64,000 bases of DNA. Source: a virus. Lineage: Duplodnaviria; Heunggongvirae; Uroviricota; Caudoviricetes. Where the stretch lies: positions 30,052 through 94,051 of the IMG/VR virus record IMGVR_UViG_3300017691_000005; one strand, given 5' to 3'. Below are positions 21,993 through 39,301 of this stretch, piece by piece. The notes beneath the pieces were generated by a model that worked only from the letters and a program-made list of their open reading frames with translations, searched no databases and was not told the DNA's origin. Positions within the stretch are counted from its first letter, which is position 1. The number at the start of each line of letters is the position of its first letter. The translations under genes were made by a program, and so were the position numbers.

Positions 21993-23794
21993 TGAGTGTA
22001 GATTTTTCAGACATACTAGATCTTCTTAATGAAGATATCTTTGAAGAGACACCAGCAACAATAGAAGAGTTTGTTACCCAAAAAGATTATCTTGGGTTGC
22101 CGCCTTTATCTGATGAGCAGTATGATCTTATTAAAGCAAGCACCCAGATATATAAACAAGAAACTCTTGAAAATTTACTATCTGAGGATGAGGCTGCAAA
22201 ACGTTGGAGTCAAACATTCAATGAGGTAGTTGCTATTTGGGGAAAGGGTAGCGGTAAGGACTATTGTTCTGAAATATCTTGTTGCTACATCGTTCACCTT
22301 CTTTTATGTCTGAAAAATCCTCAAGAATACTTTGGTAAACCGCCGGGTGACTATATTGACATCATGAACATTGCGCTTAATGCTCAACAGGCTAATAACG
22401 TTTTCTTCAAAGGTTTGAGAGCCAGAGTAAGGAATAGCCCTTGGTTCGAAGGTCGTTTTGATGCTAGAGGTAGTGAAATAGAATTTGATAAGTCCATTCG
22501 CATCATTTCTGGTCATTCAGAGTCAGAATCTCTAGAAGGATATAACGTACTTGTTGTTGTACTCGATGAGATCGCTGGTTTCGATCAGGCTCCCACCACG
22601 GGACTAAGTAAGAGGATCACTGCTGATTCTACTTACAAGATGCACAGAGCGTCAGTAAGTTCTCGTTTTGGTAAGCAAGGTAAGTTAATTCTTCTTTCGT
22701 TCCCTCGTCACAAGTCAGATTTTATTATGACTAAATACAATGAAGTCGTGGCTGAGAAGGAAATTGTCAAGAAGACTCACGAATTCAAACTAGATCCAGA
22801 ACTTCCTGACGATATTGAATCCAACAAGTTCAAAATTGAATGGGAAGAAGATACTATTACTGCTTATCGTTTCCCAGGCGTGTATGCAATTAGGAGACCA
22901 ACATGGGCGGTCAACCCTACAAAACAGATTGACGATTTTGCCCTGTCCTTCTATCGTGACTCTGCCGACTCAATGGGACGCTTCGCTGCACAACCCCCTG
23001 AGACTGTGGATGCGTTCTTTCATGACGATGAGGTAATTAATAGATCGCTGAGTCAGCCAAACGGTGTTGACGAAGAGGGAAGGTTTAGAAACAGTTTTGA
23101 GCCTGATGTTGACAAACAGTATTTCCTTCATGTTGACTTGGCTCAGGTCCACGACCGCGCAGCGGTAGCGGTGGCCCATGTTGAGACATGGAAGCAAACA
23201 GAACTGTTTGGTCAAAAGTTTTCTATACAACCTTATATAGTTGTTGACTGTATAAGATACTGGACTCCTACCAAACAAGATCCTATTGATTTCAAAAACA
23301 TTCAAGATTTCATCATTGGATTGAAAAATCGTAAGTTCAATATTAAGTTAGTCTCATTCGACCAGTGGAACAGTTTTGCCATGATGGAGGAACTGTCTGG
23401 GTACGGTATGAAGACTAAACGTTTTAGTGTTGCAAATGATGAATATATCGATGTTAAGCAGATTATGCATGAAGGCCGGTTGCAGGGACCTGACATTCCT
23501 ATTCTTAAAGAAGAGATGAGAAGACTTAGATTATTCCCTAATGGAAAAATCGACCACCCCTATAACGGATCAAAGGACTTGTTGGACGCTATGGCAGGTG
23601 CTATAGTTAGTGCAGCATCGAACAGCGATCGTAACAGTTCTTTTGAGATTGAGGTTATGACTGCTGCCGACATTAGAGATAGTGCTCGTAAAGAAAGAGA
23701 ATTAGAGCGACCAGGAAAGGTGATCAAGGAAGCACCTAAGAATGAGATGCCAAATGAGTTGAGGGATTTCATTACTAAAATGAAAATGTTCTAG
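21992..23794 (+). CDS. terminase large subunit
   Basis: Walker A GKGSGKD, Walker B VVVLDEIAGF, C-terminal RNaseH-like nuclease (DLAQVHDRAAVAV ... DHPYNGSKDLLDAMAGA). Confidence 0.75.
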   Translation: MSVDFSDILDLLNEDIFEETPATIEEFVTQKDYLGLPPLSDEQYDLIKASTQIYKQETLENLLSEDEAAKRWSQTFNEVVAIWGKGSGKDYCSEISCCYIVHLLLCLKNPQEYFGKPPGDYIDIMNIALNAQQANNVFFKGLRARVRNSPWFEGRFDARGSEIEFDKSIRIISGHSESESLEGYNVLVVVLDEIAGFDQAPTTGLSKRITADSTYKMHRASVSSRFGKQGKLILLSFPRHKSDFIMTKYNEVVAEKEIVKKTHEFKLDPELPDDIESNKFKIEWEEDTITAYRFPGVYAIRRPTWAVNPTKQIDDFALSFYRDSADSMGRFAAQPPETVDAFFHDDEVINRSLSQPNGVDEEGRFRNSFEPDVDKQYFLHVDLAQVHDRAAVAVAHVETWKQTELFGQKFSIQPYIVVDCIRYWTPTKQDPIDFKNIQDFIIGLKNRKFNIKLVSFDQWNSFAMMEELSGYGMKTKRFSVANDEYIDVKQIMHEGRLQGPDIPILKEEMRRLRLFPNGKIDHPYNGSKDLLDAMAGAIVSAASNSDRNSSFEIEVMTAADIRDSARKERELERPGKVIKEAPKNEMPNELRDFITKMKMF

Positions 23795-23802: not shown

Positions 23803-24318
23803 ATGGGATTTGGACTTGTCACACGTCAGGAGATTGTTGAGGTTCTGACTGAAAGAGATGGGTATTCGTGCTATCTTTTTGGCTGCACTCTTCCATTTAC
23901 CGAGGACAATCCACCTACTATTGACCACTTCATGCCTCAGGAATGGTGCCGCAGGCAGGGTTGGACTTTTGAGCAGATCAACGATATTTCAAATTTGAAG
24001 TTGGCTCACAAAAAGTGTAACTCTCTGAAGAGCAACATTGTTCCGAATGAGGATGGAACAATTGACATTCCTGTGCGAGAGCCTAGAAGTATCAAATCAC
24101 CTCGCTCACCTATTTGTGATACCTGTTATTCAGGTCGTCTACTTTTGGCGGGTGAAGAGTGTGAAATGTGTGGCTCAGGTCCTCAACCTGCATCTGCTCC
24201 TAAGTATCTACAGGTTCCTATCAAGGAGTGTGACCACGATCAAACTTATTGCGCCTACTGTTACATCGGTATCATTCCTCGAAAGAGCGCACTAGAGCAT
24301 CTTTTAGTTGGGCCATGA
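23803..24318 (+). CDS. HNH endonuclease (terminase-associated)
   Basis: TIDHFMPQEWCRRQGW...NLKLAHKKCNSLKSN HNH motif; C-terminal Cys clusters. Confidence 0.6.
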   Translation: MGFGLVTRQEIVEVLTERDGYSCYLFGCTLPFTEDNPPTIDHFMPQEWCRRQGWTFEQINDISNLKLAHKKCNSLKSNIVPNEDGTIDIPVREPRSIKSPRSPICDTCYSGRLLLAGEECEMCGSGPQPASAPKYLQVPIKECDHDQTYCAYCYIGIIPRKSALEHLLVGP

Positions 24319-24800: not shown

Positions 24801-24878
24801 TTTAAGTTGTGCGAGTCGAATGTTATCGATTATCTTATGTCGAAAATCTCGATAGCAGTTAACATATTCGCACACATT

Positions 24879-24949
24879 GTCGGTGTAGTTTAATGGTAGA
24901 ACAAGACGCTTCCAACGTTTTAGCGGGAGTTCGATTCTCCCTACCGGCT
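24879..24949 (+). tRNA. tRNA-Gly (TCC)
   Basis: acceptor GTCGGTG/TACCGGC, D-arm GTTT-AATGGTA-GAAC, anticodon loop CTTCCAA, T-arm GGGAG-TTCGATT-CTCCC. Confidence 0.65.
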
Positions 24950-25048
24950 CGTTCACAACCTAGAGAGTCTGTAACCAGTTTACAGCGAACCCGCACTACC
25001 AGGAGGCGGGGAGTTTGGGAGGGTATTGTCTAGGAAGAACCTCTATTT

Positions 25049-25120
25049 GGCCTCATCGTCTATCGGTTAGGATACAGGACTTTCATTCCTGTGGACGGAG
25101 TTCGACTCTCCGTGAGGCTG
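25049..25120 (+). tRNA. tRNA-Glu (TTC)
   Basis: acceptor GGCCTCA/TGAGGCT, anticodon arm CAGGA-CTTTCAT-TCCTG, T-arm CGGAG-TTCGACT-CTCCG. Confidence 0.6.
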
Positions 25121-25210
25121 CGTAATGGTACGGAGGAATTCGGTTATCTTCAATATGGTGAATCGCGGCTCGGCCGCATAACCCGAATCCATAACATGAC
25201 CATTCATTTA
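25121..25210 (+). ncRNA. inter-tRNA structured element (a), Y-RNA-like family member
   Basis: motif GGAGGAATTCGGTTATC paired with downstream CCCGAATCC, internal GCGGCTCGGCCGC hairpin, 3' motif CCATAACATGACC; flanking AATGGT/ACCATT helix. Confidence 0.4.
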
Positions 25211-25284
25211 TCCGGTGCCACTGTGGGTAAGTCGGGGAGCCTCCAAAACTCCTGTCAGTTAGAGTTCGATTCTCTACACCGGGG
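25211..25284 (+). tRNA. tRNA-Trp (CCA), D-arm atypical
   Basis: acceptor TCCGGTG/CACCGGG (U1-G72), anticodon loop CTCCAAA, T-arm TAGAG-TTCGATT-CTCTA. Confidence 0.45.
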
Positions 25285-25285
25285 C

Positions 25286-25618
25286 GTGGAAAATTTCTGG
25301 AAGGGATCTTTCGCTCCCATAAGAAAACATATTGTTGGATATGACTTCGGTAATTTGGCAGTCAACCCTGGCGATGGAGAAGTTTATATAGAAGTAACTT
25401 TACATTTTGGCGGCGTCACTCAAGGTAAGAAATGGGGCGACAACGGAGGTGAAGGTTATACATACTATTTACTGTATGATAGTGTTCCAGAACAAGATCT
25501 AAGAGAAATCCTAGATGATCCACAATACGTTGAGTTTGATTCAACATTAAGAATCATAGGGAATTATGCAGATGGATACGTAGTTCTATATCCAGCAAAA
25601 TTAATTCCAAGTATATAA
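25286..25618 (+). CDS. hypothetical protein (N-terminus of ORF 25091..25618 trimmed because it overlaps tRNAs)
   Basis: GTG at 25286 is the first start after tRNA-Trp; weak RBS. Confidence 0.3.
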   Translation: MENFWKGSFAPIRKHIVGYDFGNLAVNPGDGEVYIEVTLHFGGVTQGKKWGDNGGEGYTYYLLYDSVPEQDLREILDDPQYVEFDSTLRIIGNYADGYVVLYPAKLIPSI

Positions 25619-25693
25619 CGGGATATAGCGCAGTTTGGTCAGCGCGCTCGGTTTGGGTCCGAGAGGCCGTGGGTTCGAATCCCTCTATCCCGA
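25619..25693 (+). tRNA. tRNA-Pro (TGG)
   Basis: acceptor CGGGATA/TATCCCG, D-arm GCGC-AGTTTGGTCA-GCGC, anticodon arm CTCGG-TTTGGGT-CCGAG, T-loop TTCGAAT. Confidence 0.65.
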
Positions 25694-25706
25694 CGTAGTA
25701 CGATAT

Positions 25707-25779
25707 GGGTGTATAGTTCAGCGGTTAGAGCACTATCCTGATAAGATAGAAGTCGTGAGTTCAAATCTCACTGCACCTA
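25707..25779 (+). tRNA. tRNA-Ile (GAT)
   Basis: anticodon arm CTATC-CTGATAA-GATAG, T-arm GTGAG-TTCAAAT-CTCAC, acceptor GGGTGTA/TGCACCT. Confidence 0.65.
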
Positions 25780-25975
25780 CTTGAATGAGTCGAAGAGTTT
25801 CGGTTATCAACCTTTGTCTAATAAACAAATTAACACCGATTCTCACAACATATTCATTCTCAAGTTTCAAGGTACGAATGTCTTTCTTTATCAAAAGTTC
25901 AACTCTTTTATTTTCCACCACAAGGAAAATAGCCCGTTGGGGGCGCTGGAAGCCAATAACATGACCTTGATTTAT
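25780..25975 (+). ncRNA. inter-tRNA structured element (b), Y-RNA-like family member (long variant)
   Basis: 5' motif CGAAGAGTTTCGGTTATC (25801-25818), 3' motif CAATAACATGACCTTGAT (25954-25971) identical to element (d); no credible ORF. Confidence 0.35.
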
Positions 25976-26048
25976 GCATGTCGGTGGCGCTGGTGTGTCA
26001 GAGACTTTTACACAGTCTTGTAGAAGAGTTCAATCCTCTTGGCATGTA
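25976..26048 (+). tRNA. tRNA-Val (TAC)
   Basis: acceptor GCATGTC/GGCATGT, D-stem TGGC/GTCA, anticodon arm AGACT-TTTACAC-AGTCT, T-arm AAGAG-TTCAATC-CTCTT. Confidence 0.6.
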
Positions 26049-26066
26049 CACACAGAAAGGTTCCTC

Positions 26067-26588
26067 ATGATAGAGGTAACGTTCCTTACTCATACGTTAG
26101 AGTATATTATTACTTACAAAGATGTACCGGCAAACCTTTATTACACAATGGTAATACCTCAGGAGGTAATGTTGGTTAGTGATATACCTTATAATGTTAT
26201 TGCATCAATAGATACTAAAGAGAAATATTTGCAGATGGCTAATGCTCTTCAAGATGTTATTATCGAAATGAAATCATTAATCAAGTCTGTAAACTTAACT
26301 GCTGGCATTATTGATCATAAAATGGTTGAATTGACAGACAGTAATAATTTTAACAGCCTGTCAGCACAACTACCGGCAATGAAAGAGATGGTACTATGTC
26401 CTCGTAAGGGCGAGGTTACTAAAGACAGCATTTACGGTTCTGAGTGCGAGGCGGTCCCTAATGCCCTTTGGAATGTCATTCAACACCTGAATGATGATCA
26501 TAGACTTACCCGTGAAGAAATTGCTGATTGGGTGAGAACTTTACCGTTTGATACTACATTCAAAAATCCCAATATGGATAAAGCCTAA
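26067..26588 (+). CDS. hypothetical protein (start moved to MIEVTF downstream of tRNA-Val)
   Basis: ORF 25974..26588 overlaps a tRNA at its 5' end; the internal ATG at 26067 follows AAAGG. Confidence 0.4.
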   Translation: MIEVTFLTHTLEYIITYKDVPANLYYTMVIPQEVMLVSDIPYNVIASIDTKEKYLQMANALQDVIIEMKSLIKSVNLTAGIIDHKMVELTDSNNFNSLSAQLPAMKEMVLCPRKGEVTKDSIYGSECEAVPNALWNVIQHLNDDHRLTREEIADWVRTLPFDTTFKNPNMDKA

Positions 26589-26598
26589 GGAGAATATT

Positions 26599-26811
26599 AT
26601 GAACACAATGATTGAAGCCAAGGTTGCAGAAATTCGTAGTAATATCACTGACTCTGAACTAGAGGGTATGACTCGTCCGTTTGACCTAGCAGACGCAATT
26701 ATGGAGGGTTCCAGTGTGTCGAGTCAGTCATACACTTGGGGTAACGGTGAAAATGCTTGTGCTTTGTCAGCGGCTGTCATGTCCGCTAAAGCACGCGGCT
26801 ATCTAGATTGA
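26599..26811 (+). CDS. hypothetical protein
   Basis: RBS GGAGAATATTATG. Confidence 0.4.
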   Translation: MNTMIEAKVAEIRSNITDSELEGMTRPFDLADAIMEGSSVSSQSYTWGNGENACALSAAVMSAKARGYLD

Positions 26812-27344
26812 ATTTTCTGAGAAGGCCGGTCAAGAATATGATTCCACCGTTTGTTCTTCAATGTCAGACATTTTATAGATCTAGAGTATCTGAGACCGGT
26901 AGCGATGATCCATTTAAAACATATCCAGAACAACGCAAAAAAGTTACATTCGATGAGGCCAACCTTATCAGCAGTCGTGTAGACGACGGGTATGGAGGAC
27001 AAAGTAATTATCATCGACCAGTTCTAGATATAGATATTCCTATAGCGGTAGTCCCTAGTTCTACATTAGGTCATAATCACCTCTTCATCAATAAGGAGAT
27101 GACCAGTGATCAATATCAAAGACTGCTAGAAGTTCTTCGTGATCTAGGTATTATTGAACATGGATACATGAAGCAGTTTAATATTCTTGGAGAGACATGT
27201 GTACGAACACCTCATGCTCCTAAGGGTAGTGCTTTAGAGAAACAAATTAACGAAGAGTTTAAACAGTCTTCTGAGAAAGAAGATATTAAGAAACAGATTG
27301 AGATCTTGCAGTCGCGTCTTGACGCGCTTGAAGATGGTTGGTAG
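26808..27344 (+). CDS. hypothetical protein
   Basis: 178 aa ORF, ATGA coupling. Confidence 0.45.
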   Translation: MNFLRRPVKNMIPPFVLQCQTFYRSRVSETGSDDPFKTYPEQRKKVTFDEANLISSRVDDGYGGQSNYHRPVLDIDIPIAVVPSSTLGHNHLFINKEMTSDQYQRLLEVLRDLGIIEHGYMKQFNILGETCVRTPHAPKGSALEKQINEEFKQSSEKEDIKKQIEILQSRLDALEDGW

Positions 27345-27351
27345 AGTTATA

Positions 27352-27462
27352 CATGTTGAGCCGGAAGAGTTCGGTTATCTATCTGTCAAATAGGCGACAC
27401 GGTTCGATTCCGTGATTGGATGGTTCCTAGTTAAAACCCGAAGTCTATAACACGTTCAACAC
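27352..27462 (+). ncRNA. inter-tRNA structured element (c), Y-RNA-like family member with T-arm-like hairpin
   Basis: GGAAGAGTTCGGTTATC ... CACGG-TTCGATT-CCGTG ... GGATGGTTCC ... CCCGAAGTCTATAACACG; closing helix GTTGA/TCAAC. Confidence 0.4.
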
Positions 27463-27591
27463 TTAGATTTGCTTGTCTTGACTAGACAAGAGCCAGCGGA
27501 TATACCCAGAGGGACTAGTCATTCTTCGCCATACCCGCCTGTCACAACAGGTATATTTGTAAAGGGTATGGATCATCGCGGCTGGCACCCT

Positions 27592-27667
27592 GCCCATTGG
27601 TGCTGCGTTGGTTGCGGCAGCGATTCTTATAAAATCGTGGCCCTGAGTTCAATTCTCAGAATGGGTA
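27592..27667 (+). tRNA. tRNA-Ile (TAT)
   Basis: acceptor GCCCATT/AATGGGT, D-stem TGCT/GGCA, anticodon arm CGATT-CTTATAA-AATCG, T-arm CTGAG-TTCAATT-CTCAG. Confidence 0.5.
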
Positions 27668-27816
27668 CTTCAAGGTACGGATGCTATTCGGTTATCGAAT
27701 TTGGATCGAGTTGAGGGAGTTCGAATCTCTCTGCCCGCACTTCATGCGGGTATGGTGTAATGGCAGCACGCTAAAAACCCGAATGCAATAACATGACCTT
27801 GATACCTGGAAGTACA
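27666..27816 (+). ncRNA. candidate YrlA-like Y RNA with circularly permuted tRNA-like domain (element d)
   Basis: outer helix GTACTTCAAGGTA (27666-78) / TACCTGGAAGTAC (27804-16); order T-arm GGGAG-TTCGAAT-CTCTC, acceptor-3' TGCCCGC, loop ACTTCAT, acceptor-5' GCGGGTA, TG, D-arm GTG-TAATGGCAG-CAC; motifs TATTCGG/CCCGAAT and CAATAACATGACC; about 320 nt upstream of the Ro60 gene. Confidence 0.5.
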
Positions 27817-27895
27817 ATCCGAAAGTTGGCGACGGAGACGGTCTTGAAAACCGTTGAGCGTAAAAGCCTTGTGGGTTCGACCCCCACTGCTTCCG
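27808..27895 (+). tRNA. tRNA-Ser (TGA), class II
   Basis: acceptor GGAAGTA/TGCTTCC, D-stem TCCG/CGGA, anticodon arm ACGGT-CTTGAAA-ACCGT, long variable arm, T-arm GTGGG-TTCGACC-CCCAC. Confidence 0.55.
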
Positions 27896-27921
27896 CATCA
27901 TCCCTACTACATTAGGAAAAT

Positions 27922-28137
27922 ATGTCTGAAGTATTATGGACAGATAAACAGCAATTAGAAGATCTTGTAGGTCTTATTACAAAAGCCGTGATGGACGGTG
28001 CGTTTATTGGATACTCTGAAGTCACAGAGCCTAAACTCCTAAAAGTAATTTCAGATACTTCTATGGCTGTGACAAAACTTTACACAGATTTTCTCAACCG
28101 AGAAGCAAACACTATTTCCCAGAAAGGGGACGAATAA
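27922..28137 (+). CDS. hypothetical protein
   Basis: 71 aa, RBS AGGAAAATATG; stop overlaps the start of the Ro60 gene. Confidence 0.45.
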   Translation: MSEVLWTDKQQLEDLVGLITKAVMDGAFIGYSEVTEPKLLKVISDTSMAVTKLYTDFLNREANTISQKGDE

Positions 28138-29789
28138 TGAGTAACTCACTTATTAAGAACACCGCTGCTACTAAGGCACGCAAGAACACAACTCCTCAGA
28201 CCGTTAAGGCTGATGAGGCTCAGGTCAAGAACAACGCGGGTGGATTTACATTCGTTGTTAGTGATCGTGACCGTCTAGAGCGATTCCTGATTCTAGGTAC
28301 CGATGGAGGTACTTATTACGTATCAGAGAAGAAGATTACTGACCAGAATATTGCATTCCTTCGTAATCTTCTATCCCAAGACGAGCGTCTAGTCGTTGAT
28401 GCTGCCGTTGATGTTTCTGTTAATGGACGTGCATACAAGAACAGCCCTGCAATTTTTGCTATCGCTCTTGCTCTAACCGAGGGCAAGGATAAGGAATATG
28501 CACGAGAGGCATTTAACAAGGTAGTTCGTACTGGAACTCATCTATTTGAGGCTGTTGAATATATTAATAACCTTGGTGGTTGGGGGCGCGCAAAGCGTAA
28601 GGCTGTTGCGGGTTGGTACGAGTCTAAGGATGCTGACTCTCAGGCATACCAGACTGTCAAGTACCGTCAGCGAAATGGGTGGACTCACAAGGATGTCCTA
28701 CGTCTGAGCCACGCAAAGCCTGATCCTTACGTTGCTAATTTCGCCCTAGGTAAGAAGGTTGTCTCTGATGACAAGCCTCAGGTAATTTCTGGTTTTGAGG
28801 CTGCACAGTCGGCCGGGTCCGAGAAGGAAGTAATTTCTGTTCTTGAGACTTATAAGAATCTTCCTTGGGAGGCTATTCCTACCGAGTTCCTTAAGTCAGA
28901 TAAGGTTTGGAAGACTCTTTTCTACAACAACCAACTAAACGGTCAAGCGCTTGTTCGTAATATTGTCCGTCTTTCTCGACTAAATGCCTTCAATGATATG
29001 CAGTTTGCTGCTGACTATGCCAAGCGACTAACTGACGAAGAGATGATTAAGAAGACACGTCTTCACCCAATCAACTATCTAAATGCAGTTGTCGTTTATG
29101 AACAGGGTCAGATTGAGCGTCAGGGCAATTACGGTTACTACGGAGGATCTCGTAAGAAGGATTGGCAGACCAGTTCAGTCATCATTGATGCTCTCAATGA
29201 AGGTTTCCATTCTTCATTCAAGTCTGTTGAGCCTGCCGGTAAGCGCACTCTAGAAGCAATTGATGTTTCAGGTTCCATGAGTTCGCCTGCAATTGGTCTT
29301 GACCTTTCATGTGCTCAGGTATCTGCTGCAATTGCTATGACTATTGCTCGTACCGAGCCTGCTCACATTATCCGTGGTTTTACTACCGGAAGTGGAAGCC
29401 GTTATAACTGGCGAGGCACAGCAGAACTTACTGATCTTGGTATTTCTGCTAAGACTTCTCTTTCTTCCGCAATGAGTAAGGTTCGGAAGAATAACTTCGG
29501 TGGTACTGATTGTGCTATGCCGATGATTTGGGCTCTTGAGAACAAGGTTGAGGTAGATACGTTTGTTGTCGTCACAGACAACGAGACATGGGCCGGGAGT
29601 ATTCACCCTCACCAGGCTCTAAAGAAGTACCGCGATCAAATGGGTATTGATGCACGTCTTGCGGTTCTAGGTGTCGCATCCACTGAGTTCACTATCGCTG
29701 ATCCTAAGGATAAGGGAATGATGGATTTTGTTGGGTTTGACTCCAATGCACCTCGCGTTCTAGCAGATTTCTCTGCTGGCCGTCTGTAA
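28137..29789 (+). CDS. rsr: Ro60/Rsr ortholog (TROVE domain plus vWA domain with MIDAS)
   Basis: 550 aa; hallmark FLILGTDGGTYYVSEKK (cf. GSEGGTYY of Ro/Rsr), SPAIFAIALAL; C-terminal vWA with MIDAS DVSGSMS at about residue 378, as in Ro60. Confidence 0.8.
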   Translation: MSNSLIKNTAATKARKNTTPQTVKADEAQVKNNAGGFTFVVSDRDRLERFLILGTDGGTYYVSEKKITDQNIAFLRNLLSQDERLVVDAAVDVSVNGRAYKNSPAIFAIALALTEGKDKEYAREAFNKVVRTGTHLFEAVEYINNLGGWGRAKRKAVAGWYESKDADSQAYQTVKYRQRNGWTHKDVLRLSHAKPDPYVANFALGKKVVSDDKPQVISGFEAAQSAGSEKEVISVLETYKNLPWEAIPTEFLKSDKVWKTLFYNNQLNGQALVRNIVRLSRLNAFNDMQFAADYAKRLTDEEMIKKTRLHPINYLNAVVVYEQGQIERQGNYGYYGGSRKKDWQTSSVIIDALNEGFHSSFKSVEPAGKRTLEAIDVSGSMSSPAIGLDLSCAQVSAAIAMTIARTEPAHIIRGFTTGSGSRYNWRGTAELTDLGISAKTSLSSAMSKVRKNNFGGTDCAMPMIWALENKVEVDTFVVVTDNETWAGSIHPHQALKKYRDQMGIDARLAVLGVASTEFTIADPKDKGMMDFVGFDSNAPRVLADFSAGRL

Positions 29790-29790
29790 C

Positions 29791-29822
29791 AAAGAGGCGG
29801 GGCCAACTGGCCCCGCCTCCCT
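29791..29822 (+). terminator. stem-loop terminator after rsr
   Basis: GAGGCGGGGCC-AACT-GGCCCCGCCTC perfect inverted repeat. Confidence 0.5.
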
Positions 29823-29830
29823 TACGTTGA

Positions 29831-30370
29831 TTGGATGACATGACTAATACTGGTTATATTCGCACGCCTAAAATTGGTCACAGCGTAAAAGTAAACGACA
29901 CTTATACTGGCGATTTTGCAATTATTGGTGAAGTGCTTACTGTTGCGGCTGTAGGATCTCAAGGTGAAGTATCCGTTAAAGAATTGTTTGTTAGTAAGAC
30001 AAATCAAAACAAGCAGTACCCTCAGTATTATAGACAGAATCCTATTCTACTTTCTTATGAGTATAATCTTATTGAGTATCCAACCATCAAAGATAAGTTT
30101 GATGCGGACGTTAACGTTGGGGATTATGTTGTAGTAGCCCCGGCGGTACATGGTGGTCACATTGAGCGTGGTGTCATTAAGACAACTTCTATTAACAACC
30201 AATATGGCAGAGATAATCAGGCATTTACTTTGGAAGTTGACACTGAGACACGGTATTGGGAGGCGGAAGATCGTAAATTTTCGGTTCCTAAAAAAACAAT
30301 TAGGCATTATGGTTCCTCGGCGGGTCTATTGCTTCTGACCAAAGCAGTTGACAGGTTTGACGCTCCCTGA
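29831..30370 (+). CDS. hypothetical protein
   Basis: 179 aa ORF. Confidence 0.45.
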   Translation: MDDMTNTGYIRTPKIGHSVKVNDTYTGDFAIIGEVLTVAAVGSQGEVSVKELFVSKTNQNKQYPQYYRQNPILLSYEYNLIEYPTIKDKFDADVNVGDYVVVAPAVHGGHIERGVIKTTSINNQYGRDNQAFTLEVDTETRYWEAEDRKFSVPKKTIRHYGSSAGLLLLTKAVDRFDAP

Positions 30371-30430
30371 CATAATTTAGTCATCAGGGAAGCGGAGGAT
30401 GACGGTTACCTCTTGAAATAATCCGTCTTT

Positions 30431-30502
30431 GCCCTCATAGTATAGTGGTTAGTACATTGGTTTCTCAGGCCAAAAGTCGGAGTTCGATTCTCCGTGGGGG
30501 TA
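30431..30502 (+). tRNA. tRNA-Glu (CTC)
   Basis: acceptor GCCCTCA/TGGGGGT, D-arm GTAT-AGTGGTTA-GTAC, anticodon loop TTCTCAG, T-arm CGGAG-TTCGATT-CTCCG. Confidence 0.55.
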
Positions 30503-30584
30503 CGCGGGTCTTTATGATATAAGCATTAGATAGATTCTAGATACTCGATCTAATCGAATGGCTGCTAGCATTAGCCCCCCGCTC

Positions 30585-30716
30585 CATACGCGCCCAGGGT
30601 TTGTGGGGGAACGTGGTCGGTGTCATAGGCTGTTGTAAAACCACGGAAGGTACAACCGTGAGAGTGCGACTAAGCCGGTCTTTAACGTTTGGAGGTTCGA
30701 TTCCTCCTTCGCGTAC
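30585..30716 (+). other. tRNA-like structured element (acceptor-like helix TACGCG/CGCGTA plus T-arm GGAGG-TTCGATT-CCTCC enclosing about 100 nt); unresolved
   Basis: canonical T-arm at 30689-30705 followed by CGCGTA complementary to 30595-30600; no standard cloverleaf found; internal hairpin CACGG-AAGGTACAA-CCGTG. Confidence 0.3.
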
Positions 30717-30855
30717 GTTAGTGAGTGCTATACAATCCGAAACTGATGGACAGCATAAATCAGTATAGGACAAAGCACAGAGTCAAAATTCATAAGCCGT
30801 GCTGTGGCTAGAAAAGTAGACAAGTAGGGGTTAGGAACCTGATGCACTAACACCC

Positions 30856-30927
30856 GTCCTAGTGGTATAACGGTTATTATTTTTGCTTGCCAAGCAAACG
30901 ACGCCAGTTCGACTCTGGTCTAGGACT
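30856..30927 (+). tRNA. tRNA-Gly (GCC)
   Basis: acceptor GTCCTAG/CTAGGAC, anticodon arm TTTGC-TTGCCAA-GCAAA, T-arm GCCAG-TTCGACT-CTGGT. Confidence 0.6.
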
Positions 30928-30944
30928 CAACCGAAAGGATTACA

Positions 30945-31190
30945 ATGATTACAGATTATTTTGGTCAGGAACTTCATAAGGGAGATCTCGTAACAGCGGC
31001 GGTTGCCAGTGGTAGATCCTCAGGAGGTCAAAGAGTTGGCATTTTAGTTAAAGAGCCTGAAGAGAAAAAGATGTTAACTATTGAACTTGTTCCTCCGCCT
31101 ACAAACGGTTATGATCGATCAACTGTTTCAGTAAATTACTCAAGATCCAAAGTAATAAAACTTCCCAAGGAGTATACCTTTCTGGTATAG
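30945..31190 (+). CDS. hypothetical protein
   Basis: 81 aa ORF with RBS AAAGGATTACAATG. Confidence 0.4.
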   Translation: MITDYFGQELHKGDLVTAAVASGRSSGGQRVGILVKEPEEKKMLTIELVPPPTNGYDRSTVSVNYSRSKVIKLPKEYTFLV

Positions 31191-31208
31191 TTCTCTATGG
31201 TGTCTGTG

Positions 31209-31279
31209 TTGTAATGGAAGCATGAGAGATTGTGTCCCTCTCGGAGACGGATCGTTACCGTCCAGACACACAGCGGCCA
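31209..31279 (+). tRNA. tRNA-His (GTG) (alternative reading Thr-TGT); non-canonical T-loop ATCGTTA
   Basis: perfect acceptor GTGTCTG/CAGACAC with an extra G at -1 (His-like), anticodon arm AGAGA-TTGTGTC-CCTCT (A31.C39), T-arm GACGG-ATCGTTA-CCGTC. Confidence 0.4.
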
Positions 31280-31339
31280 AGTGATGTATTAGGTACCGTG
31301 ATATCCGGTGGCTTGGTAATTGAAACCCTAATACTTTTA

Positions 31340-31445
31340 TATCGGGTCGATTGAATTCGTTTATCTTCGCCAATGATTGAAGGCTAGTGGTTCGACTCCA
31401 CGGCACAGGGATGGTTCCCATCGAATTCTTACACATATCTGATTT
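31340..31445 (+). ncRNA. inter-tRNA structured element (e), Y-RNA-like family member with T-arm-like hairpin
   Basis: GAATTCGTTTATC ... GTGG-TTCGACT-CCAC ... GGATGGTTCC ... CGAATTCTTACACATATC; GAATTCG/CGAATTC helix. Confidence 0.35.
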
Positions 31446-31447
31446 AT

Positions 31448-31519
31448 GGACTGTTAGCATAGATGGCAATGCGTTCGGTTGAAGCCCGAAAGAATAGGGA
31501 TCGTTACCCTGGCAGTCTA
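31448..31519 (+). tRNA. tRNA-Phe (GAA); non-canonical T-loop ATCGTTA
   Basis: acceptor GGACTGT/GCAGTCT, D-arm GCAT-AGATGGCA-ATGC, anticodon arm TTCGG-TTGAAGC-CCGAA, T-arm TAGGG-ATCGTTA-CCCTG. Confidence 0.55.
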
Positions 31520-31520
31520 C

Positions 31521-31560
31521 GTAACCCGGTTGAATGGCAGCCGGGTTTTTCTATGAGAGG
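31521..31560 (+). terminator. rho-independent terminator-like hairpin
   Basis: ACCCGG-TTGAATGGCAG-CCGGGT followed by TTTTT. Confidence 0.45.
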
Positions 31561-31568
31561 AGAGCCTA

Positions 31569-32447
31569 ATGTTCTGGCTCATTGTTTTTAGCGCTCTTGT
31601 AATTATTTTTCTTCTGGCTGTAGCAGCCGCTGTCATTACTAAATCCCCTGGCCCAAGGCTAGTAGCAGCACTAGTTCTAGTGATTGCACTAGTATTCACA
31701 GCATTTAATTCATTTACCACGGTTGGTGCTCGTAGCGTGGGTATTCAAACTGGATTTGGTAAGTACATGCAGACCCTTGATAATGGTTTCCACATCAAGG
31801 CGCCTTATTCCAGTGTTGAAGAGTTCAGCACTCAAGTTCAGTACCTTGACCTAAATGGTGAGGGTGATGCTGTTGCCGTGACATTCAAGGGCGGCGGCGG
31901 TGGTAATGTAAATGCTACGGTCCGCTGGCGTATCGATGCCAAGCAGGCTGAGAATCTTTGGAGTAAGTACCGTACATTTGAAGCGGTAAGGGATCAACTA
32001 GTGACTTCTTCTGCTAAGGATTCATTCCGAGTTGTTGTTGCCAACTACACTCCTAATGATGCTCGTAGTGGTGAGAACATTCGACCCATTACTGAGGCGG
32101 TAGTTGCTGACCTTTCCAAGAATCTCGCTAATGACGGTATTGTGATTGACTCTGTATCCATTTCTTCTCTTGGTCTAGATGCAAATAGTCAAGCAAGTCT
32201 TGACCGTATTGTTCAAGCCAATAATGATATTGAACGTGCTACCGCTGAACAGCAGAGGGCTCAGATTGATGCTGAGACTGCTCGTATCCGTCAGGAAACC
32301 GGCGCGCTCGCTCCTGAGGCTAATATTCGTTACTGCCTTGAACTGGTGAACAGTTGGGACGTTGCCAAGAATGGTAATCTTCCCGCGACATTTAACTGTG
32401 CGCTGACTGATCCTGCAAATATCACTCCCGTTCTCCCGGTACAGTGA
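31569..32447 (+). CDS. SPFH/band-7 (prohibitin/stomatin-like) membrane protein
   Basis: N-terminal TM helix, SPFH-type core, C-terminal coiled coil (AEQQRAQIDAETARIRQE). Confidence 0.65.
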   Translation: MFWLIVFSALVIIFLLAVAAAVITKSPGPRLVAALVLVIALVFTAFNSFTTVGARSVGIQTGFGKYMQTLDNGFHIKAPYSSVEEFSTQVQYLDLNGEGDAVAVTFKGGGGGNVNATVRWRIDAKQAENLWSKYRTFEAVRDQLVTSSAKDSFRVVVANYTPNDARSGENIRPITEAVVADLSKNLANDGIVIDSVSISSLGLDANSQASLDRIVQANNDIERATAEQQRAQIDAETARIRQETGALAPEANIRYCLELVNSWDVAKNGNLPATFNCALTDPANITPVLPVQ

Positions 32448-33464: not shown

Positions 33465-33579
33465 CGGTAACGCTGGCTGTGCAGCGGATACAATACTAGG
33501 ATATTCGCGTGAGAGAATCCTAGTGAAGAGAAGAGGGATGATTAATCACGCTCTACCCCTCGTAAATCACACAGCATAT

Positions 33580-33651: not shown

Positions 33652-33797
33652 CGTAATAGCACAGCAGGGCAAGCGCTGAAAGACAAGTTCCGAGGGTACA
33701 GTTAAGATGGTCTCGCCCATTTGCCGGGGTGTAAAGAGACAACCTGAGAGGAATAATTGCTATTAACACTGCTATGATTTGCAAGTCGTAGCAGCAT

Positions 33798-34813: not shown

Positions 34814-34884
34814 GGCGTAGACAGCGGGATGCTGGGGCGTGACTGTAAATCACTACCATGAAGGTTCGAGTCCTTCCTGCGCTA
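34814..34884 (+). tRNA. tRNA-Tyr (GTA), short/atypical D and variable regions
   Basis: acceptor GGCGTAG/CTGCGCT, anticodon loop CTGTAAA on stem GTGA/TCAC, T-arm GAAGG-TTCGAGT-CCTTC. Confidence 0.45.
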
Positions 34885-34963
34885 CTTGATCAGATTTCGA
34901 ATATGATCTAGACATTCTCATGGTTTAGTGCGCCTGAGATGAGTCGATAAAAATAGCACGCCA

Positions 34964-39173: not shown

Positions 39174-39301
39174 CGCAATGACGAGTATAAATAATAACTA
39201 AATAGTAATATTGATTACGGTACGAATGTTGTGGGTTACCTTGCAGCAGTCGAAAGACAACACTCGTCACTCCCATAGCAGCAAACAATACCGTGATTAA
39301 T

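What the first reader, a model, noticed from the sequence alone, without database searches (positions are those of the whole stretch)
25121..31447. Family of five related structured elements occupying tRNA-tRNA spacers
Five intergenic elements share a conserved 5' motif GAAGAGTTCGGTTATC and a 3' motif CCCGAA(T)..ATAACA(T/C)G(ACC), with a variable core that often contains a T-arm-like hairpin GG-TTCGAxT-CC and GGATGGTTCC. Their positions are (a) 25121-25210 between Glu and Trp, (b) 25780-25975 between Ile and Val, (c) 27352-27462, (d) 27666-27816 between Ile2 and Ser, and (e) 31340-31445 between His and Phe. In every copy the NTTCGG of the 5' motif pairs with the downstream CCGAAN, and compensatory changes are seen (GAATTCG/CGAATTC in e). 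The sequence immediately after the upstream tRNA pairs with the sequence immediately before the downstream tRNA (AATGGT/ACCATT in a, GTTGA/TCAAC in c, the 13-bp helix in d). Elements (b) and (d) share an identical 18-mer CAATAACATGACCTTGAT. These are neither ORFs nor canonical tRNAs. They could be a Y-RNA-like ncRNA family serving the Ro protein, tRNA-array processing or spacer modules, or a small mobile RNA element that targets tRNA arrays.
Basis: seen in the sequence. Interest (0 to 1): 0.8.

Follow-up and report, generated by a model that had tools for sequence, protein, structure and literature searches.

The report
Eight phage Y RNAs around Ro60
These are eight small structured RNA genes, relatives of the bacterial "Y RNAs" that partner the RNA-quality-control protein Ro60, packed between tRNA genes around a phage's own Ro60 gene; the kind of RNA is already known, but this copy number and the tRNA-flanked layout are a useful, so far unannotated example.

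Summary
The repeats are real, but the inventory needs correcting. There are eight elements, not five: 24809-24873, 25124-25204, 25783-25859, 25867-25970, 27355-27460, 27670-27802, 31341-31443 and 39214-39297, all on the + strand.

All eight share one architecture: a terminal 5'/3' helix, an asymmetric internal loop (5' CG(G/A)A, 3' AACAU-like), a second helix, UUAUC, then a variable core.

ORF 28137-29789 encodes Ro60 (TROVE plus Ro60 vWA domains). I built a covariance model only from elements next to Ro60 in other phages, including mycobacteriophage ET08, in which YrlA is published. Its top eight hits in the 64-kb window are exactly these eight. Element d scores 81 bits, with T arm, closed acceptor-like stem and D arm in YrlA order.

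Both helices covary strongly, within the window and across 13 related loci. Among IMG/VR loci chosen by motif alone, model hits coincide with Ro60.

Verdict: Y RNA-like (YrlA/YrlB-type) partners of a phage Ro60, probably released from the tRNA array by tRNA-processing enzymes. This is a new member of a known kind. Rfam's YrlA threshold is not reached. Ro60 binding and processing are inferred, not shown.

The parts
24809..24873 (+). Y RNA-like element f (65 nt, minimal). Layout: GUGCGAGU / CGAA / UGUUAUCGA / UUAUC / 14-nt loop / UCGAUAGCA / GUUAACAU / AUUCGCAC. Ends 5 nt before tRNA-Gly(tcc).
Evidence: Found by the descriptor scan and the 5'-motif profile. Model R1, built from relatives only: 48.1 bits, E 2.7e-8. 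R2: 43.8 bits, E 1.8e-9. Carries the strict published motif GNCGAAN0-1G. Its centroid fold has the family architecture.
25124..25204 (+). Y RNA-like element a (81 nt). Layout: AAUGGU-A-CGGA-GGA-A-UUCGG-UUAUC, a core of two small hairpins, then CCGAA-UCC-AUAACAUG-ACCAUU. Lies 2 nt after tRNA-Glu(ttc) and 6 nt before tRNA-Trp.
   Evidence: R2 24.5 bits, E 2.8e-4. R1 19.2 bits. Fold. The core motif UCUUCAAUAUGGUGAAU is shared with L003:4646-4726 and L012:2719-2790.
25783..25859 (+). Y RNA-like element b1 (77 nt). Layout: GAAUGAGU-CGAA-GAG-UU-UCGGU ... ACCGA-UU-CUC-ACAACAU-AUUCAUUC, with a single-hairpin core. Lies 2 nt after tRNA-Ile(gat) and 7 nt before b2.
   Evidence: R1 46.7 bits, E 5.7e-8. 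R2 35.7 bits, E 2.6e-7. MFE equals centroid, z -2.4. Strict GNCGAAG motif.
25867..25970 (+). Y RNA-like element b2 (104 nt). Layout: UCAAGGU-A-CGAA-UG-U-CUUUC-UUUAUC, a core of three hairpins (the first an AU-rich T-loop-like hairpin, AAAAG-UUCAACU-CUUUU), then GGAAG-C-CA-AUAACAUG-ACCUUGA. Ends 5 nt before tRNA-Val(tac).
   Evidence: R2 19.7 bits, E 5e-3, the weakest of the eight. 5'-motif profile 12.0 bits. Fold. Helix 2 is fully compensated relative to d (CUUUC/GGAAG versus AUUCGG/CCGAAU). The core resembles Belfort L001:3300-3395.
27355..27460 (+). Y RNA-like element c (106 nt). Same stem module; core holds a hairpin, a T arm (CACGGUUCGAUUCCGUG) and a mini-hairpin GGAUGGUUCC. Ends 677 nt upstream of Ro60.
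   Evidence: R2 51.2 bits, E 1.7e-11, with the T arm aligned to the model's T arm. Fold.
27670..27802 (+). Y RNA-like element d (133 nt), YrlA type. Stem module, V hairpin, T arm 27713-27731, closed 7-8-bp acceptor-like stem-loop 27732-27752, D arm 27753-27773, then the 3' strand. Lies 1 nt after tRNA-Ile(tat), 5 nt before tRNA-Ser(tga), and ends 335 nt upstream of Ro60.
   Evidence: R2 81.1 bits, E 1.5e-19, a full-length match to all five helices. MFE fold z -2.4. The order of modules matches the ET08 element that contains Rfam's best YrlA hit in that locus.
31341..31443 (+). Y RNA-like element e (103 nt), a variant. Layout: AUCGGGU-CGA-UU-GAAUUCG-UUUAUC, a core with a hairpin, a T arm (GUGGUUCGACUCCAC) and GGGAUGGUUCCC, then CGAAUUC-UU-ACACAU-AUCUGAU. 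Starts 1.55 kb downstream of the Ro60 stop and ends 4 nt before tRNA-Phe.
   Evidence: R2 27.7 bits, E 4e-5. MFE equals centroid with the family architecture. The 5' end GGGUCGA resembles the GGGUCGGA consensus of relatives.
39214..39297 (+). Y RNA-like element g (84 nt). Layout: AUUACGGUA-CGAA-UGUUGUGGG-UUACC-core-CCCAUAGCA-GCAAACAA-UACCGUGAU. Ends 4 nt before tRNA-Thr and starts 9.4 kb downstream of Ro60.
Evidence: Descriptor scan score 31-33. R2 28.7 bits, E 2e-5. MFE equals centroid, z -2.4. Helix 2 is compensated relative to f (GUGGG/CCCAU versus AUCGA/UCGAU).
28137..29789 (+). Ro60 gene (550 aa), the presumed protein partner.
   Evidence: Pfam TROVE 1.3e-33 and Ro60 vWA domain 1.5e-60. 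PHROG 850 'RNA-binding protein' 5.8e-102. 61-64% identical to the Ro-like proteins of Streptomyces phages Belfort, Gilson, Peebs and StarPlatinum, and about 42% to those of Bxz1-type mycobacteriophages.
24879..27894 (+). tRNA genes that abut the upstream elements: Gly 24879-24950, Glu 25049-25121, Trp 25211-25285, Ile 25707-25780, Val 25976-26049, Ile(tat) 27592-27668 and Ser(tga) 27808-27894. Further on, Phe 31448-31520 and Thr 39302-39373 abut e and g.
   Evidence: ARAGORN. tRNA-Ser was seen only through the Rfam tRNA clan, at 36.4 bits. Gaps between elements and tRNAs are computed.
31523..31547 (+). Terminator-like hairpin plus U tract directly after tRNA-Phe; a possible end of the transcription unit that contains e.
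   Evidence: Consensus scan. A pattern match only.

Best explanation
The elements are eight paralogous Y RNA-like non-coding RNAs (the bacterial/phage YrlA/YrlB class), encoded on the same strand as a phage Ro60 gene inside a tRNA array. The phage resembles the Streptomyces cluster-BE phages.

All eight share a Ro60-binding-type module. The 5' and 3' ends pair into a 6-9-bp terminal helix. Next comes an asymmetric internal loop, with CG(G/A)A on the 5' strand (the GNCGAAN0-1G region that Ro60 is thought to contact) and a 6-9-nt AACAU-type stretch on the 3' strand. Then follow a second helix of about 9 bp, often with a one-nucleotide bulge, and a conserved UUAUC.

The cores differ. d has a full circularly permuted tRNA mimic (V, T arm, closed acceptor-like stem, D arm). 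c and e have a T arm plus a small GG-containing hairpin. b2 has a T-loop-like hairpin. a, b1, f and g have simple hairpins.

Inferred mechanism. The RNAs are transcribed with the tRNAs. RNase P cutting at the 5' end of the downstream tRNA would release them with a 4-6-nt 3' tail. 3'-end processing of the upstream tRNA (or a cut between tandem copies) would set the 5' end. Each RNA then binds phage Ro60 through the shared stem, while its own core gates the Ro60 cavity or tethers Ro60 to different partners, for example host PNPase as in the known Ro60-Y RNA-PNPase complexes.

Shown here: the sequence family, the covarying structure, homology to Ro60-linked elements of other phages, the linkage to Ro60, and the adjacency to tRNAs. 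Inferred: transcription, processing sites, Ro60 binding and downstream function.
For: (1) Ro60 is encoded at 28137-29789.

(2) Each of the eight folds on its own into the same terminal helix / internal loop / helix / core layout.

(3) Covariation among the eight window copies: 90.2% of cells pair versus 62.3% in shuffles (0/500); 15 of 18 pairs change on both sides; slid controls 31-50%. Cognate terminal strands pair better than non-cognate ones, mean 7.1 versus 4.2.

(4) 39 elements curated from 13 Ro60 loci of other phages: 88.3% versus 63.9% (0/500), and the terminal helix pairs in 99.6% of cells. The model-based alignment of 53 hits gives 92.5% versus 62.2%, with 30 of 31 pairs changed on both sides across H1, H2, T, AS and D.

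(5) Model R2 was built from 11 YrlA-type elements of other phages and contains no window sequence. RNAalifold on its alignment predicts H1, H2, T arm, 7-bp acceptor-like stem and D arm, with 28 of 32 pairs compensated. R2's top eight hits in the window are exactly these eight, all on the + strand, from 81.1 bits (E 1.5e-19) down to 19.7 bits (E 5e-3). The ninth hit is a tandem-tRNA artefact. R1, a stem-only model from relatives, finds f and b1 at E of about 1e-8.

(6) Link to the described family. Rfam's YrlA model gives its best hit in the ET08 locus inside L002:3656-3803 (37.4 bits), and sub-threshold hits in two Belfort elements. Chen et al. 2014 (PMC4201824) report YrlA in ET08 and 21 other phages, within 4 kb of Ro60 on the same strand, with a 5' GNCGAAN0-1G motif, a YUAY and a V-T-AS-D domain. 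The phiLo study (PMC12135203) defines phage Y RNA-like RNAs by a 5'-3' stem flanking an internal bulge that carries CGAA, and shows they bind phage Ro60.

(7) Association with Ro60. Among 119 IMG/VR loci picked only by the motif GTCGRAN{4,8}TCGGTTATC, 22 have R2 hits. Of these, 19 are in Ro60-encoding contigs and the other 3 are cut by contig or locus ends. None of the 97 R2-negative loci has Ro60.

(8) All 53 hits in the window and 13 loci are on the Ro60 strand.

(9) tRNA adjacency. Six of the eight window elements end 4-6 nt before a tRNA 5' end, and three start 1-2 nt after a tRNA 3' end. Of all 47 curated elements, 38 abut a tRNA (10 nt or less) or another element (15 nt or less).
Against: Rfam's YrlA model (gathering score 69 bits) gives no hit to any window element, even at E<=10 on a 601-nt slice around c and d. 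Relatives reach only 28-37 bits.

The strict published motif GNCGAAN0-1G is present in only 2 of the 8 elements (f, b1). a, b2, d and g have GUACG(G/A)A, and e has GUCGAUUG.

Folding energies alone are unremarkable, with z from -0.7 to -2.4.

Element g lies 9.4 kb from Ro60, outside the 4-kb neighbourhood used in the literature.

The weakest copies (b2 at E 5e-3, a at E 2.8e-4) would not stand alone; they rest on the shared motif and architecture.

My curated alignments chose helix ends by eye, and the model-derived alignment leans towards the model's structure. There is no expression, processing or binding data for this phage or its relatives.
Confidence: 0.85

Rival explanations
1. They are structured spacers of the tRNA array. 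On this reading they serve as leader/trailer modules that insulate neighbouring pre-tRNAs or guide RNase P, RNase Z or RNase E, and have no role with Ro60.
For: Most copies abut tRNAs within a few nucleotides, and their terminal helix brings the two flanking tRNA ends together. They sit in a dense same-strand array with few promoter or terminator signals.
Against: Most tRNA-tRNA spacers of the same array lack them; there are only 8 elements for about 30 tRNAs, clustered around Ro60. ET08 has three elements next to Ro60 with no tRNA within 2.4 kb. Elements c and several relatives are not tRNA-flanked. Model hits track Ro60 in independent contigs. The shared loop matches the motif reported for Ro60-bound RNAs.
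Confidence: 0.07
2. They are decayed or rearranged tRNA genes: tRNA pseudogenes, or fused halves of neighbouring tRNAs. On this reading the T-arm and D-arm similarity is a relic without present function.
For: d, c and e carry T arms. The D arm of d (GGUGUAAUGGCAGCAC) is nearly identical to that of the phage's own tRNA-Gln. Tandem tRNAs can mimic the T-AS-D order; see the ninth R2 hit and the warning in PMC4201824. ARAGORN mis-calls two relatives' elements as tRNAs.
Against: Four of the eight have no tRNA-like part, yet keep the same stem module. All helices, including the non-tRNA helices H1 and H2, keep pairing through compensatory changes across distant phages, which indicates selection. The acceptor-like stem is closed by a loop, and there is no anticodon arm.
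Confidence: 0.04
3. They are a small mobile element (MITE-like or RNA-mediated) that inserts into tRNA arrays. On this reading the terminal helix is a terminal inverted repeat.
For: There are multiple copies with complementary termini. b2 and d share identical termini (an 11-mer and an 18-mer) around unrelated cores.
Against: All copies here and in 13 related loci are on one strand. The termini differ between copies and covary, with conserved G-U pairs that are meaningful only in RNA of the + strand. I saw no target-site duplications at the ends of the eight copies when reading the sequence. Orthologous subtypes sit at syntenic positions in distant phages, for example after tRNA-Ile and before tRNA-Ser.
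Confidence: 0.02
4. They are cis-acting regulatory structures, such as attenuators or stability and processing elements, that control expression of Ro60 or neighbouring small ORFs.
For: c and d lie directly upstream of Ro60 on the same strand.
Against: Copies also lie downstream of Ro60 (e, g; also L106 and L121) and between tRNAs. No terminator or anti-terminator alternative is evident. The tRNA-like domain and the shared protein-binding-type loop are unexplained by this reading.
Confidence: 0.02

Closest known systems
YrlA (Y RNA-like A; Rfam RF02553) of Salmonella Typhimurium, Mycobacterium smegmatis and mycobacteriophages such as ET08 (Chen et al. 2014, PMC4201824)
   Same: Encoded beside Ro60 on the same strand. 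The 5' and 3' ends pair. A CGAA-type motif lies near the 5' end, followed by YUAY. Element d has the same V-T-AS-D permuted tRNA mimic, with a 7-8-bp closed acceptor-like stem as in M. smegmatis YrlA. A model containing the ET08 element scores d at 81 bits.
   Different: No window element gives any hit to the Rfam model, so the gathering score is not reached. The 5' motif is mostly CGGA or has an extra base (GUACGRA). Both strands of the internal loop are conserved (3' AACAU), whereas for Salmonella and M. smegmatis only the 5' strand was described as recognisable. Here the RNA is flanked by tRNA genes at 1 and 5 nt.
[quoted passage not shown]
   Same: These are additional Ro60-bound RNAs encoded next to the tRNA-like one. 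They share the stem / CGAA loop / stem module but have a simple hairpin or only a T arm. a, b1, f and g (hairpins) and c and e (T arm only) fit this description. M. smegmatis YrlA and YrlB are processed from one precursor, as proposed here.
   Different: Two per genome were described in those systems. Here there are seven besides d, in at least four core types, spread over 14.5 kb and interleaved with tRNAs. No binding data exist for them.
Metazoan Y RNAs and nematode stem-bulge RNAs (from my own knowledge; Rfam RF00019 was among the families scanned)
   Same: Small RNAs whose paired termini carry the Ro60 site while a variable loop gives each paralog its own role; multi-copy families exist (4 in human, many sbRNAs in C. 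elegans).
   Different: No detectable sequence similarity: no Rfam Y_RNA hit. There is no GGUCCGA bulged helix. Metazoan Y RNAs are independent Pol III genes with La-bound U tails and lack a tRNA-like domain.
tRNA-punctuated release of non-tRNA RNAs (MHV68 tRNA-miRNA units, MALAT1 mascRNA, plant tRNA-snoRNA units; from my own knowledge, as a functional analogy only)
   Same: A non-tRNA RNA lies directly beside a tRNA or tRNA-like structure, so RNase P or RNase Z cleavage defines its end.
   Different: Those are eukaryotic or herpesviral systems. Processing has not been shown here.

Membership tests
Bacterial/phage Y RNA-like RNAs (YrlA/YrlB class, Chen et al. 2014) | Encoded close to a Ro60/TROVE gene (within about 4 kb) on the same strand | tested here: met
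   Ro60 lies at 28137-29789. Seven of the eight elements lie within 3.3 kb of it and all eight are on its strand. g is 9.4 kb away. The same holds in 13 related loci and in the Ro60-positive motif-selected loci.
Bacterial/phage Y RNA-like RNAs (YrlA/YrlB class, Chen et al. 2014) | The 5' and 3' ends pair into a stem that flanks an internal loop or bulge, followed by a second stem (the stem-bulge-stem Ro60 module) | tested here: met
   Independent folds of all eight. Covariation of both helices.
Bacterial/phage Y RNA-like RNAs (YrlA/YrlB class, Chen et al. 2014) | The 5'-strand motif GNCGAAN0-1G (CGAA motif) | tested here: inconclusive
   The strict motif is in f and b1 only. CG(A/G)A at the same position is in 7 of 8, and e has CGAU. 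Across 47 elements, 17 match strictly and 29 match with CG[AG]A, against about 1% of random 26-mers.
YrlA (Rfam RF02553) | A circularly permuted tRNA-like domain: (V), T arm, closed acceptor-like stem, D arm, enclosed by the 5'/3' stem | tested here: met
   Met for element d only. It gives a full-length R2 alignment over all five helices at 81.1 bits and its MFE fold shows the same helices. c and e have the T arm only.
YrlA (Rfam RF02553) | A score at or above Rfam's gathering threshold (69 bits) | tested here: not met
   No YrlA hit in the window at E<=1 over 24 kb or at E<=10 over 27300-27900. The ET08 locus, in a phage with published YrlA, reaches only 37.4 bits, and Belfort elements 28-30 bits. 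The Rfam model therefore under-detects phage members.
Bacterial/phage Y RNA-like RNAs (YrlA/YrlB class, Chen et al. 2014) | Physical association with Ro60 and Ro60-dependent accumulation; tRNA-type modifications (pseudouridine 55, dihydrouridine) | not testable with these tools
   This needs immunoprecipitation, gel-shift and Northern experiments and modification mapping.
Canonical tRNA genes | Cloverleaf with an anticodon arm and an open acceptor stem | tested here: not met
   ARAGORN calls none of the eight. No Rfam tRNA-clan hit overlaps them. d has a loop-closed acceptor-like stem, and the long 5'/3' stem takes the place of the anticodon arm.
MITE-like mobile elements | Terminal inverted repeats with target-site duplications; insertion in either orientation; near-identical copies | tested here: not met
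   All 53 hits are on one strand. The termini covary and contain G-U pairs. Apart from the conserved motifs, and the termini shared by b2 and d, the copies differ widely in sequence and in core. I saw no target-site duplications when reading the sequence around the ends.

The most novel reading that the evidence does not exclude
The most novel reading not excluded: this phage lineage has turned the Y RNA into a modular, tRNA-punctuated toolkit. Eight RNAs share one Ro60-docking stem and carry different effector cores: a full tRNA mimic, tRNA-elbow mimics with only a T arm and a GG hairpin, and plain hairpins. All would be cut out of the tRNA array by the host's RNase P and tRNA 3'-end enzymes. 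Their supply would then be coupled to phage tRNA production, and each would direct phage Ro60 (possibly with host PNPase) to a different task, for example surveillance or protection of phage tRNAs against host anticodon nucleases.
Probability: 0.25. Interest if true: 0.7.

Novelty: new member of a known kind. Interest (0 to 1): 0.5.

Why it matters
Ro60 and its Y RNAs are conserved from bacteria to humans, but what the variable part of a Y RNA does is still largely open.

This phage group offers a natural series: five to eight paralogs per genome with one constant Ro60-type stem and at least four kinds of core. That series could be used to ask which core recruits which partner.

The tight tRNA-Y-tRNA packing makes a concrete, testable prediction about how bacterial or phage Y RNA ends are made.

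There is also a practical point. The five GenBank records of Streptomyces phages I inspected annotate no RNA at the corresponding elements, and at least one element is probably mis-annotated as a tRNA. Rfam's YrlA model misses them. A phage-aware model would improve annotation.

Tried and rejected
Searches that found nothing or too little:
- Megablast of 25000-32000 against the phage collection found nothing. The window has no close sequenced relative there, so I reached relatives through the Ro60 protein instead.
- Rfam scans of the window gave no Y_RNA or YrlA hit.
- The stem-only model R1, whose cores were replaced by GAAA, recovered only the short-core copies f, b1 and, marginally, a. Long cores are penalised as insertions. 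R2 solved this.
- My regular-expression and helix descriptor scan is noisy and produces many coding-region false positives. I used it only to propose candidates.
- My crude classification of core types by regular expression was unreliable for D arms.

Ideas considered and rejected:
- I considered whether the conserved GUUAU of the 5' motif pairs with the AUAAC of the 3' motif. It cannot nest with UUCGG/CCGAA, because the order is X Y ... X' Y'. Both motifs are nearly invariant, so covariation gives no information. I treat them as single-stranded or protein-contact elements and leave them unexplained.

Other negative results:
- Other spacers of the array gave no blastn match in any fetched locus: 27461-27591, 24951-25048, 30504-30855, 31272-31340, 33466-33579, 33653-33797, 39374-39484, 45005-45163 and four more.
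- The supplement of Chen et al. 2014 and two Wolin-lab reviews are not held in the library. I therefore could not check the published ET08 coordinates or the list of 22 phages.

Full report
SETTING

The window carries a same-strand array of about 30 tRNA genes between 24.5 and 45.4 kb (ARAGORN; Rfam). It lies downstream of a terminase large subunit gene (21992-23794) and an HNH endonuclease gene (23803-24318).

Inside the array, ORF 28137-29789 encodes a 550-aa Ro60. It matches Pfam TROVE (1.3e-33) and the Ro60 vWA domain (1.5e-60).

Megablast of 25000-32000 against the phage collection finds nothing. At the protein level the Ro60 is 61-64% identical to the 'Ro-like RNA binding protein' of large Streptomyces phages (Belfort, Gilson, Peebs, StarPlatinum; Stanwilliamsviridae, cluster BE). 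It is about 42% identical to that of Bxz1-type mycobacteriophages such as ET08. The gene order terminase, HNH, tRNAs, Ro60 matches Belfort.

Yes, with corrections. The exact 10-mer TTCGGTTATC occurs four times, plus one copy with a single mismatch. The quoted pairings exist and appear in the minimum-free-energy fold of each element taken alone. None of the elements is called a tRNA.

First, element (b) is two complete tandem elements. In b1 (25783-25859) the UCGGU pairs with ACCGA at 25835. b2 (25867-25970) has its own 5' half and owns the 18-mer shared with d.

Second, two copies were missed. These are f (24809-24873) and g (39214-39297). A descriptor scan and an nhmmer profile of the 5' half both separate eight sites (12-17 bits) from everything else (6.7 bits or less).

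Third, the terminal helix of d is 7 bp.

ANATOMY

All eight share one layout, in this order:
- a terminal helix H1 of 6-9 bp, made by the two ends;
- an asymmetric internal loop, with CG(G/A)A(A) on the 5' strand and 6-9 nt ending in AACAU, AACAC or ACAU on the 3' strand;
- a helix H2 of about 9 bp, often with a one-base bulge or a 1x1 mismatch;
- a conserved UUAUC (UUACC in g);
- a variable core of 14-82 nt.

The conserved GUUAU (5') and AUAAC (3') cannot pair at the same time as UUCGG/CCGAA without crossing. I treat them as loop elements.

The cores fall into types:
- d has a V hairpin, a T arm (27713-27731), a closed 7-8-bp acceptor-like stem-loop (27732-27752) and a D arm (27753-27773).
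- c and e have a T arm followed by the small hairpin GG(G)AUGGUUCC(C).
- b2 has an AU-rich T-loop-like hairpin plus two more hairpins.
- a has two small hairpins.
- b1, f and g have a single hairpin or loop.

STRUCTURE IS UNDER SELECTION

Within the window, the eight copies have different H1 sequences that pair with their own partner much better than with the partners of other copies (mean 7.1 versus 4.2). On an alignment of the eight stem modules, 90.2% of cells pair. That compares with 62.3% in shuffles (0 of 500 reach it) and 31-50% when partners are slid. 15 of 18 pairs change on both sides. Examples in H2 are AUUCGG/CCGAAU (d), CUUUC/GGAAG (b2), AUCGA/UCGAU (f) and GUGGG/CCCAU (g).

Folding energies alone are weak evidence, with z from -0.7 to -2.4.

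RELATIVES

I fetched 13 Ro60 loci: five Streptomyces phages, ET08 and seven IMG/VR contigs. Every one has one to six such elements in my curation, 39 in all, on the Ro60 strand and mostly within 2.3 kb upstream of it. None is annotated in the GenBank records.

Their stem modules give 88.3% paired cells versus 63.9% in shuffles (0/500). The terminal helix pairs in 99.6% of cells, and 9 of its 11 pairs change on both sides. For example, the innermost pair is U-A in 22 elements and C-G in 17. The second pair is G-U in 31 of 39 elements, which makes sense only for RNA read from this strand.

Eleven full-length elements of the tRNA-like type align with invariant GGUUCGAAUCC. RNAalifold on that alignment predicts H1, H2, T arm, a 7-bp acceptor-like stem and D arm, with 28 of 32 pairs compensated.

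NON-CIRCULAR TEST OF HOMOLOGY

Covariance model R2 was built from those eleven elements only and contains no window sequence. I ran it over the whole window with filters off. Its eight best hits are exactly the eight elements, all on the + strand:

- d: 81.1 bits, E 1.5e-19, full length through all five helices
- c: 51.2 bits
- f: 43.8 bits
- b1: 35.7 bits
- g: 28.7 bits
- e: 27.7 bits
- a: 24.5 bits
- b2: 19.7 bits, E 5e-3

The ninth hit (34832-35006, 17.9 bits) spans two adjacent tRNAs. This is the artefact that Chen et al. warn about. A stem-only model from the relatives (R1) finds f and b1 at E of about 1e-8.

Across the window plus the 13 loci, R2 gives 53 hits, all on the Ro60 strand. 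The resulting alignment has 92.5% paired cells versus 62.2% in shuffles, and 30 of 31 pairs change on both sides.

Two caveats apply. I chose helix ends by eye in the curated alignments. And a model-derived alignment leans towards the model's structure; the slid-partner controls (34-46%) speak against this being the whole effect.

WHAT IT IS

Chen et al. 2014 (PMC4201824) described YrlA RNAs as follows:
- encoded within 4 kb of Ro60 on the same strand, in 254 bacteria and 22 phages including ET08;
- a 5' GNCGAAN0-1G motif thought to contact Ro60;
- a YUAY;
- a tRNA-like domain in the order V, T, acceptor-like stem-loop, D.

Second Y RNAs in the same loci (YrlB, Yrn2) are simpler hairpins, sometimes with a T arm, and can be processed from the same precursor.

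[quoted passage not shown] It showed that they bind the phage Ro60 and form complexes with host PNPase.

The window elements fit this description. Rfam's YrlA model places its best hit in the ET08 locus inside the element I used (37.4 bits), and it touches two Belfort elements (28-30 bits). Element d aligns module by module with that ET08 element.

ASSOCIATION TEST

I scanned IMG/VR with the motif GTCGRAN{4,8}TCGGTTATC. It returned 119 loci, most of them expected to be chance matches.
- R2 hits (E<1e-3) occur in 22 of the 119.
- Of those 22, 17 contain Ro60 in the fetched stretch.
- Two more are in Ro60-encoding contigs: L094 is on the same contig as L053, and L095 shows the Ro60 N-terminus at its edge.
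- Three are cut by contig or locus ends.
- None of the 97 loci without R2 hits contains Ro60.

In the Ro60-positive loci the elements are on the Ro60 strand, usually upstream and sometimes downstream (L106, L121). Some contigs carry five or six copies (L021, L062, L085).

HOW IT PROBABLY WORKS

Shown here: eight paralogs share a conserved, covarying stem and loop module of the Ro60-binding type and differ in their cores. They are linked to Ro60. They are packed against tRNA genes.

The packing is tight:
- f ends 5 nt before tRNA-Gly.
- a sits 2 nt after tRNA-Glu and 6 nt before tRNA-Trp.
- b1 starts 2 nt after tRNA-Ile; b2 follows after 7 nt and ends 5 nt before tRNA-Val.
- d sits 1 nt after tRNA-Ile(tat) and 5 nt before tRNA-Ser.
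- e ends 4 nt before tRNA-Phe.
- g ends 4 nt before tRNA-Thr.

Among all 47 curated elements, 38 abut a tRNA (10 nt or less) or another element (15 nt or less).

Inferred: the RNAs are co-transcribed with the tRNAs. RNase P cleavage at the downstream tRNA would release each with a short A/U-rich 3' tail. Processing of the upstream tRNA's 3' end would free the 5' end. The shared stem would dock each RNA on phage Ro60. The different cores would gate the Ro60 cavity or tether it to different partners, as Y RNA does with PNPase in Deinococcus, Salmonella and phiLo. [quoted passage not shown] None of these steps can be tested with sequence alone.

RIVALS

Pure tRNA-spacer modules. This is contradicted by ET08, where three elements lie next to Ro60 and no tRNA is within 2.4 kb. 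It is also contradicted by the restriction of the elements to Ro60-encoding contigs.

tRNA pseudogenes. This is contradicted by selection on the non-tRNA helices and by the four copies that have no tRNA-like part.

Mobile elements. This is contradicted by the single orientation, the G-U-containing covarying termini and the syntenic subtypes.

Cis-regulators of Ro60. This does not explain the copies downstream of Ro60 or between tRNAs.

MEMBERSHIP AND NOVELTY

By architecture, genomic context and a custom model, the elements belong to the bacterial/phage Y RNA-like class, and d is of the YrlA type. Two formal criteria are not met or only partly met:
- Rfam's gathering score is not reached; there is no hit at all in the window.
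- The strict GNCGAAN0-1G motif is present in only two of the eight copies.

I therefore call this a new member of a known kind. I found no paper describing Y RNAs in Streptomyces phages. A 2026 note on cluster BE2 genomes and a review of jumbo phages mention only the Ro protein.

Beyond the literature I could read are the copy number (eight here, five to seven in some relatives, against two in the characterised bacterial and phage systems), the range of core types, and the tRNA-punctuated layout.

Interest is moderate, 0.5. A specialist would not be surprised that a phage Ro60 has Y RNAs, but would find the modular eight-member set and its implied biogenesis worth testing.

Noticed in passing
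L012:3959-4031 (Streptomyces phage Blueeyedbeauty, MH536814 67008-67080); L004:4031-4115 and 4250-4322: The GenBank 'tRNA-His(gtg)' of Blueeyedbeauty overlaps the 5' two-thirds of a YrlA-type element (L012:3958-4093). ARAGORN did not reproduce this tRNA call here. Conversely, ARAGORN calls a 'tRNA-Val' and a 'tRNA-Asp' over two Y-like elements of the IMG/VR contig L004. Y-like RNAs are therefore sometimes mis-annotated as tRNAs and may inflate phage tRNA counts.
   Followed up: partly
window 27461-27591: The 131-nt spacer between element c and tRNA-Ile(tat) folds unusually well: -43.5 kcal/mol, z -3.2, 0 of 200 shuffles as stable. It forms a 7-bp hairpin whose loop holds TTGACT, plus a three-way junction closed by GCCAGC/GCUGGC. 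It is not a member of the Y-like family and has no blastn match in the fetched loci. It could be another small RNA or a promoter region.
   Followed up: partly
window 27808-27894: A tRNA-Ser(UGA) with an unusual D region is missed by ARAGORN. It is seen only as an Rfam tRNA-clan hit (tRNA-Sec model, 36.4 bits, below threshold). Its position after a YrlA-type element matches the annotated tRNA-Ser(tga) of Belfort and Blueeyedbeauty.
   Followed up: partly
window 30504-30855: A 352-nt spacer between tRNA-Glu(ctc) and tRNA-Gly(gcc) has no convincing ORF. It contains a perfect T-arm-like hairpin, GGAGGTTCGATTCCTCC (30691-30707). No tRNA, Y-like element or Rfam family is called there, and its folding z-scores are unremarkable.
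   Followed up: partly
window 45251-45332 and 34814-34884: There is a sub-threshold Rfam tmRNA hit (42.9 bits against a gathering score of 47) covering only 82 nt between two tRNA-Leu genes. Cluster BE phages are reported to encode one tmRNA. There is also a sub-threshold tRNA hit (28.1 bits) at 34814-34884 that ARAGORN does not call. Together with the next tRNA-Met, that hit produces the ninth, false, R2 match.
   Followed up: no
window 25867-25877 / 27670-27680 and 25955-25972 / 27787-27804: Elements b2 and d have identical termini around completely different cores and different second helices: the 5' 11-mer TTCAAGGTACG and the 3' 18-mer CAATAACATGACCTTGAT. This suggests recent gene conversion or exchange of the terminal module between paralogs.
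   Followed up: no
window 29795-29822: Directly after the Ro60 stop codon lies an 11-bp G+C-rich hairpin, GAGGCGGGGCC-AACT-GGCCCCGCCTC, without a following U tract. The terminator scan does not flag it. It could be a U-tract-less terminator or a 3'-end stabiliser.
   Followed up: no
window 27664-27669 with 27810-27815: The last bases of tRNA-Ile(tat) (GTACTT) are complementary to bases 3-8 of tRNA-Ser (AAGTAC). In a precursor this could extend the terminal helix of element d by 6 bp across a 7-nt bulge. It may be chance, or it may affect the order of processing.
   Followed up: no
L021:7167-7873 (IMGVR_UViG_3300024284_000007), L062:141-829, L085:710-2034: Other Ro60-linked phage contigs carry five or six Y-like elements in tight tandem arrays with spacing of about 110-140 nt, some with two or three full tRNA-like copies. 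Multi-copy Y RNA sets seem common in this phage group.
   Followed up: partly
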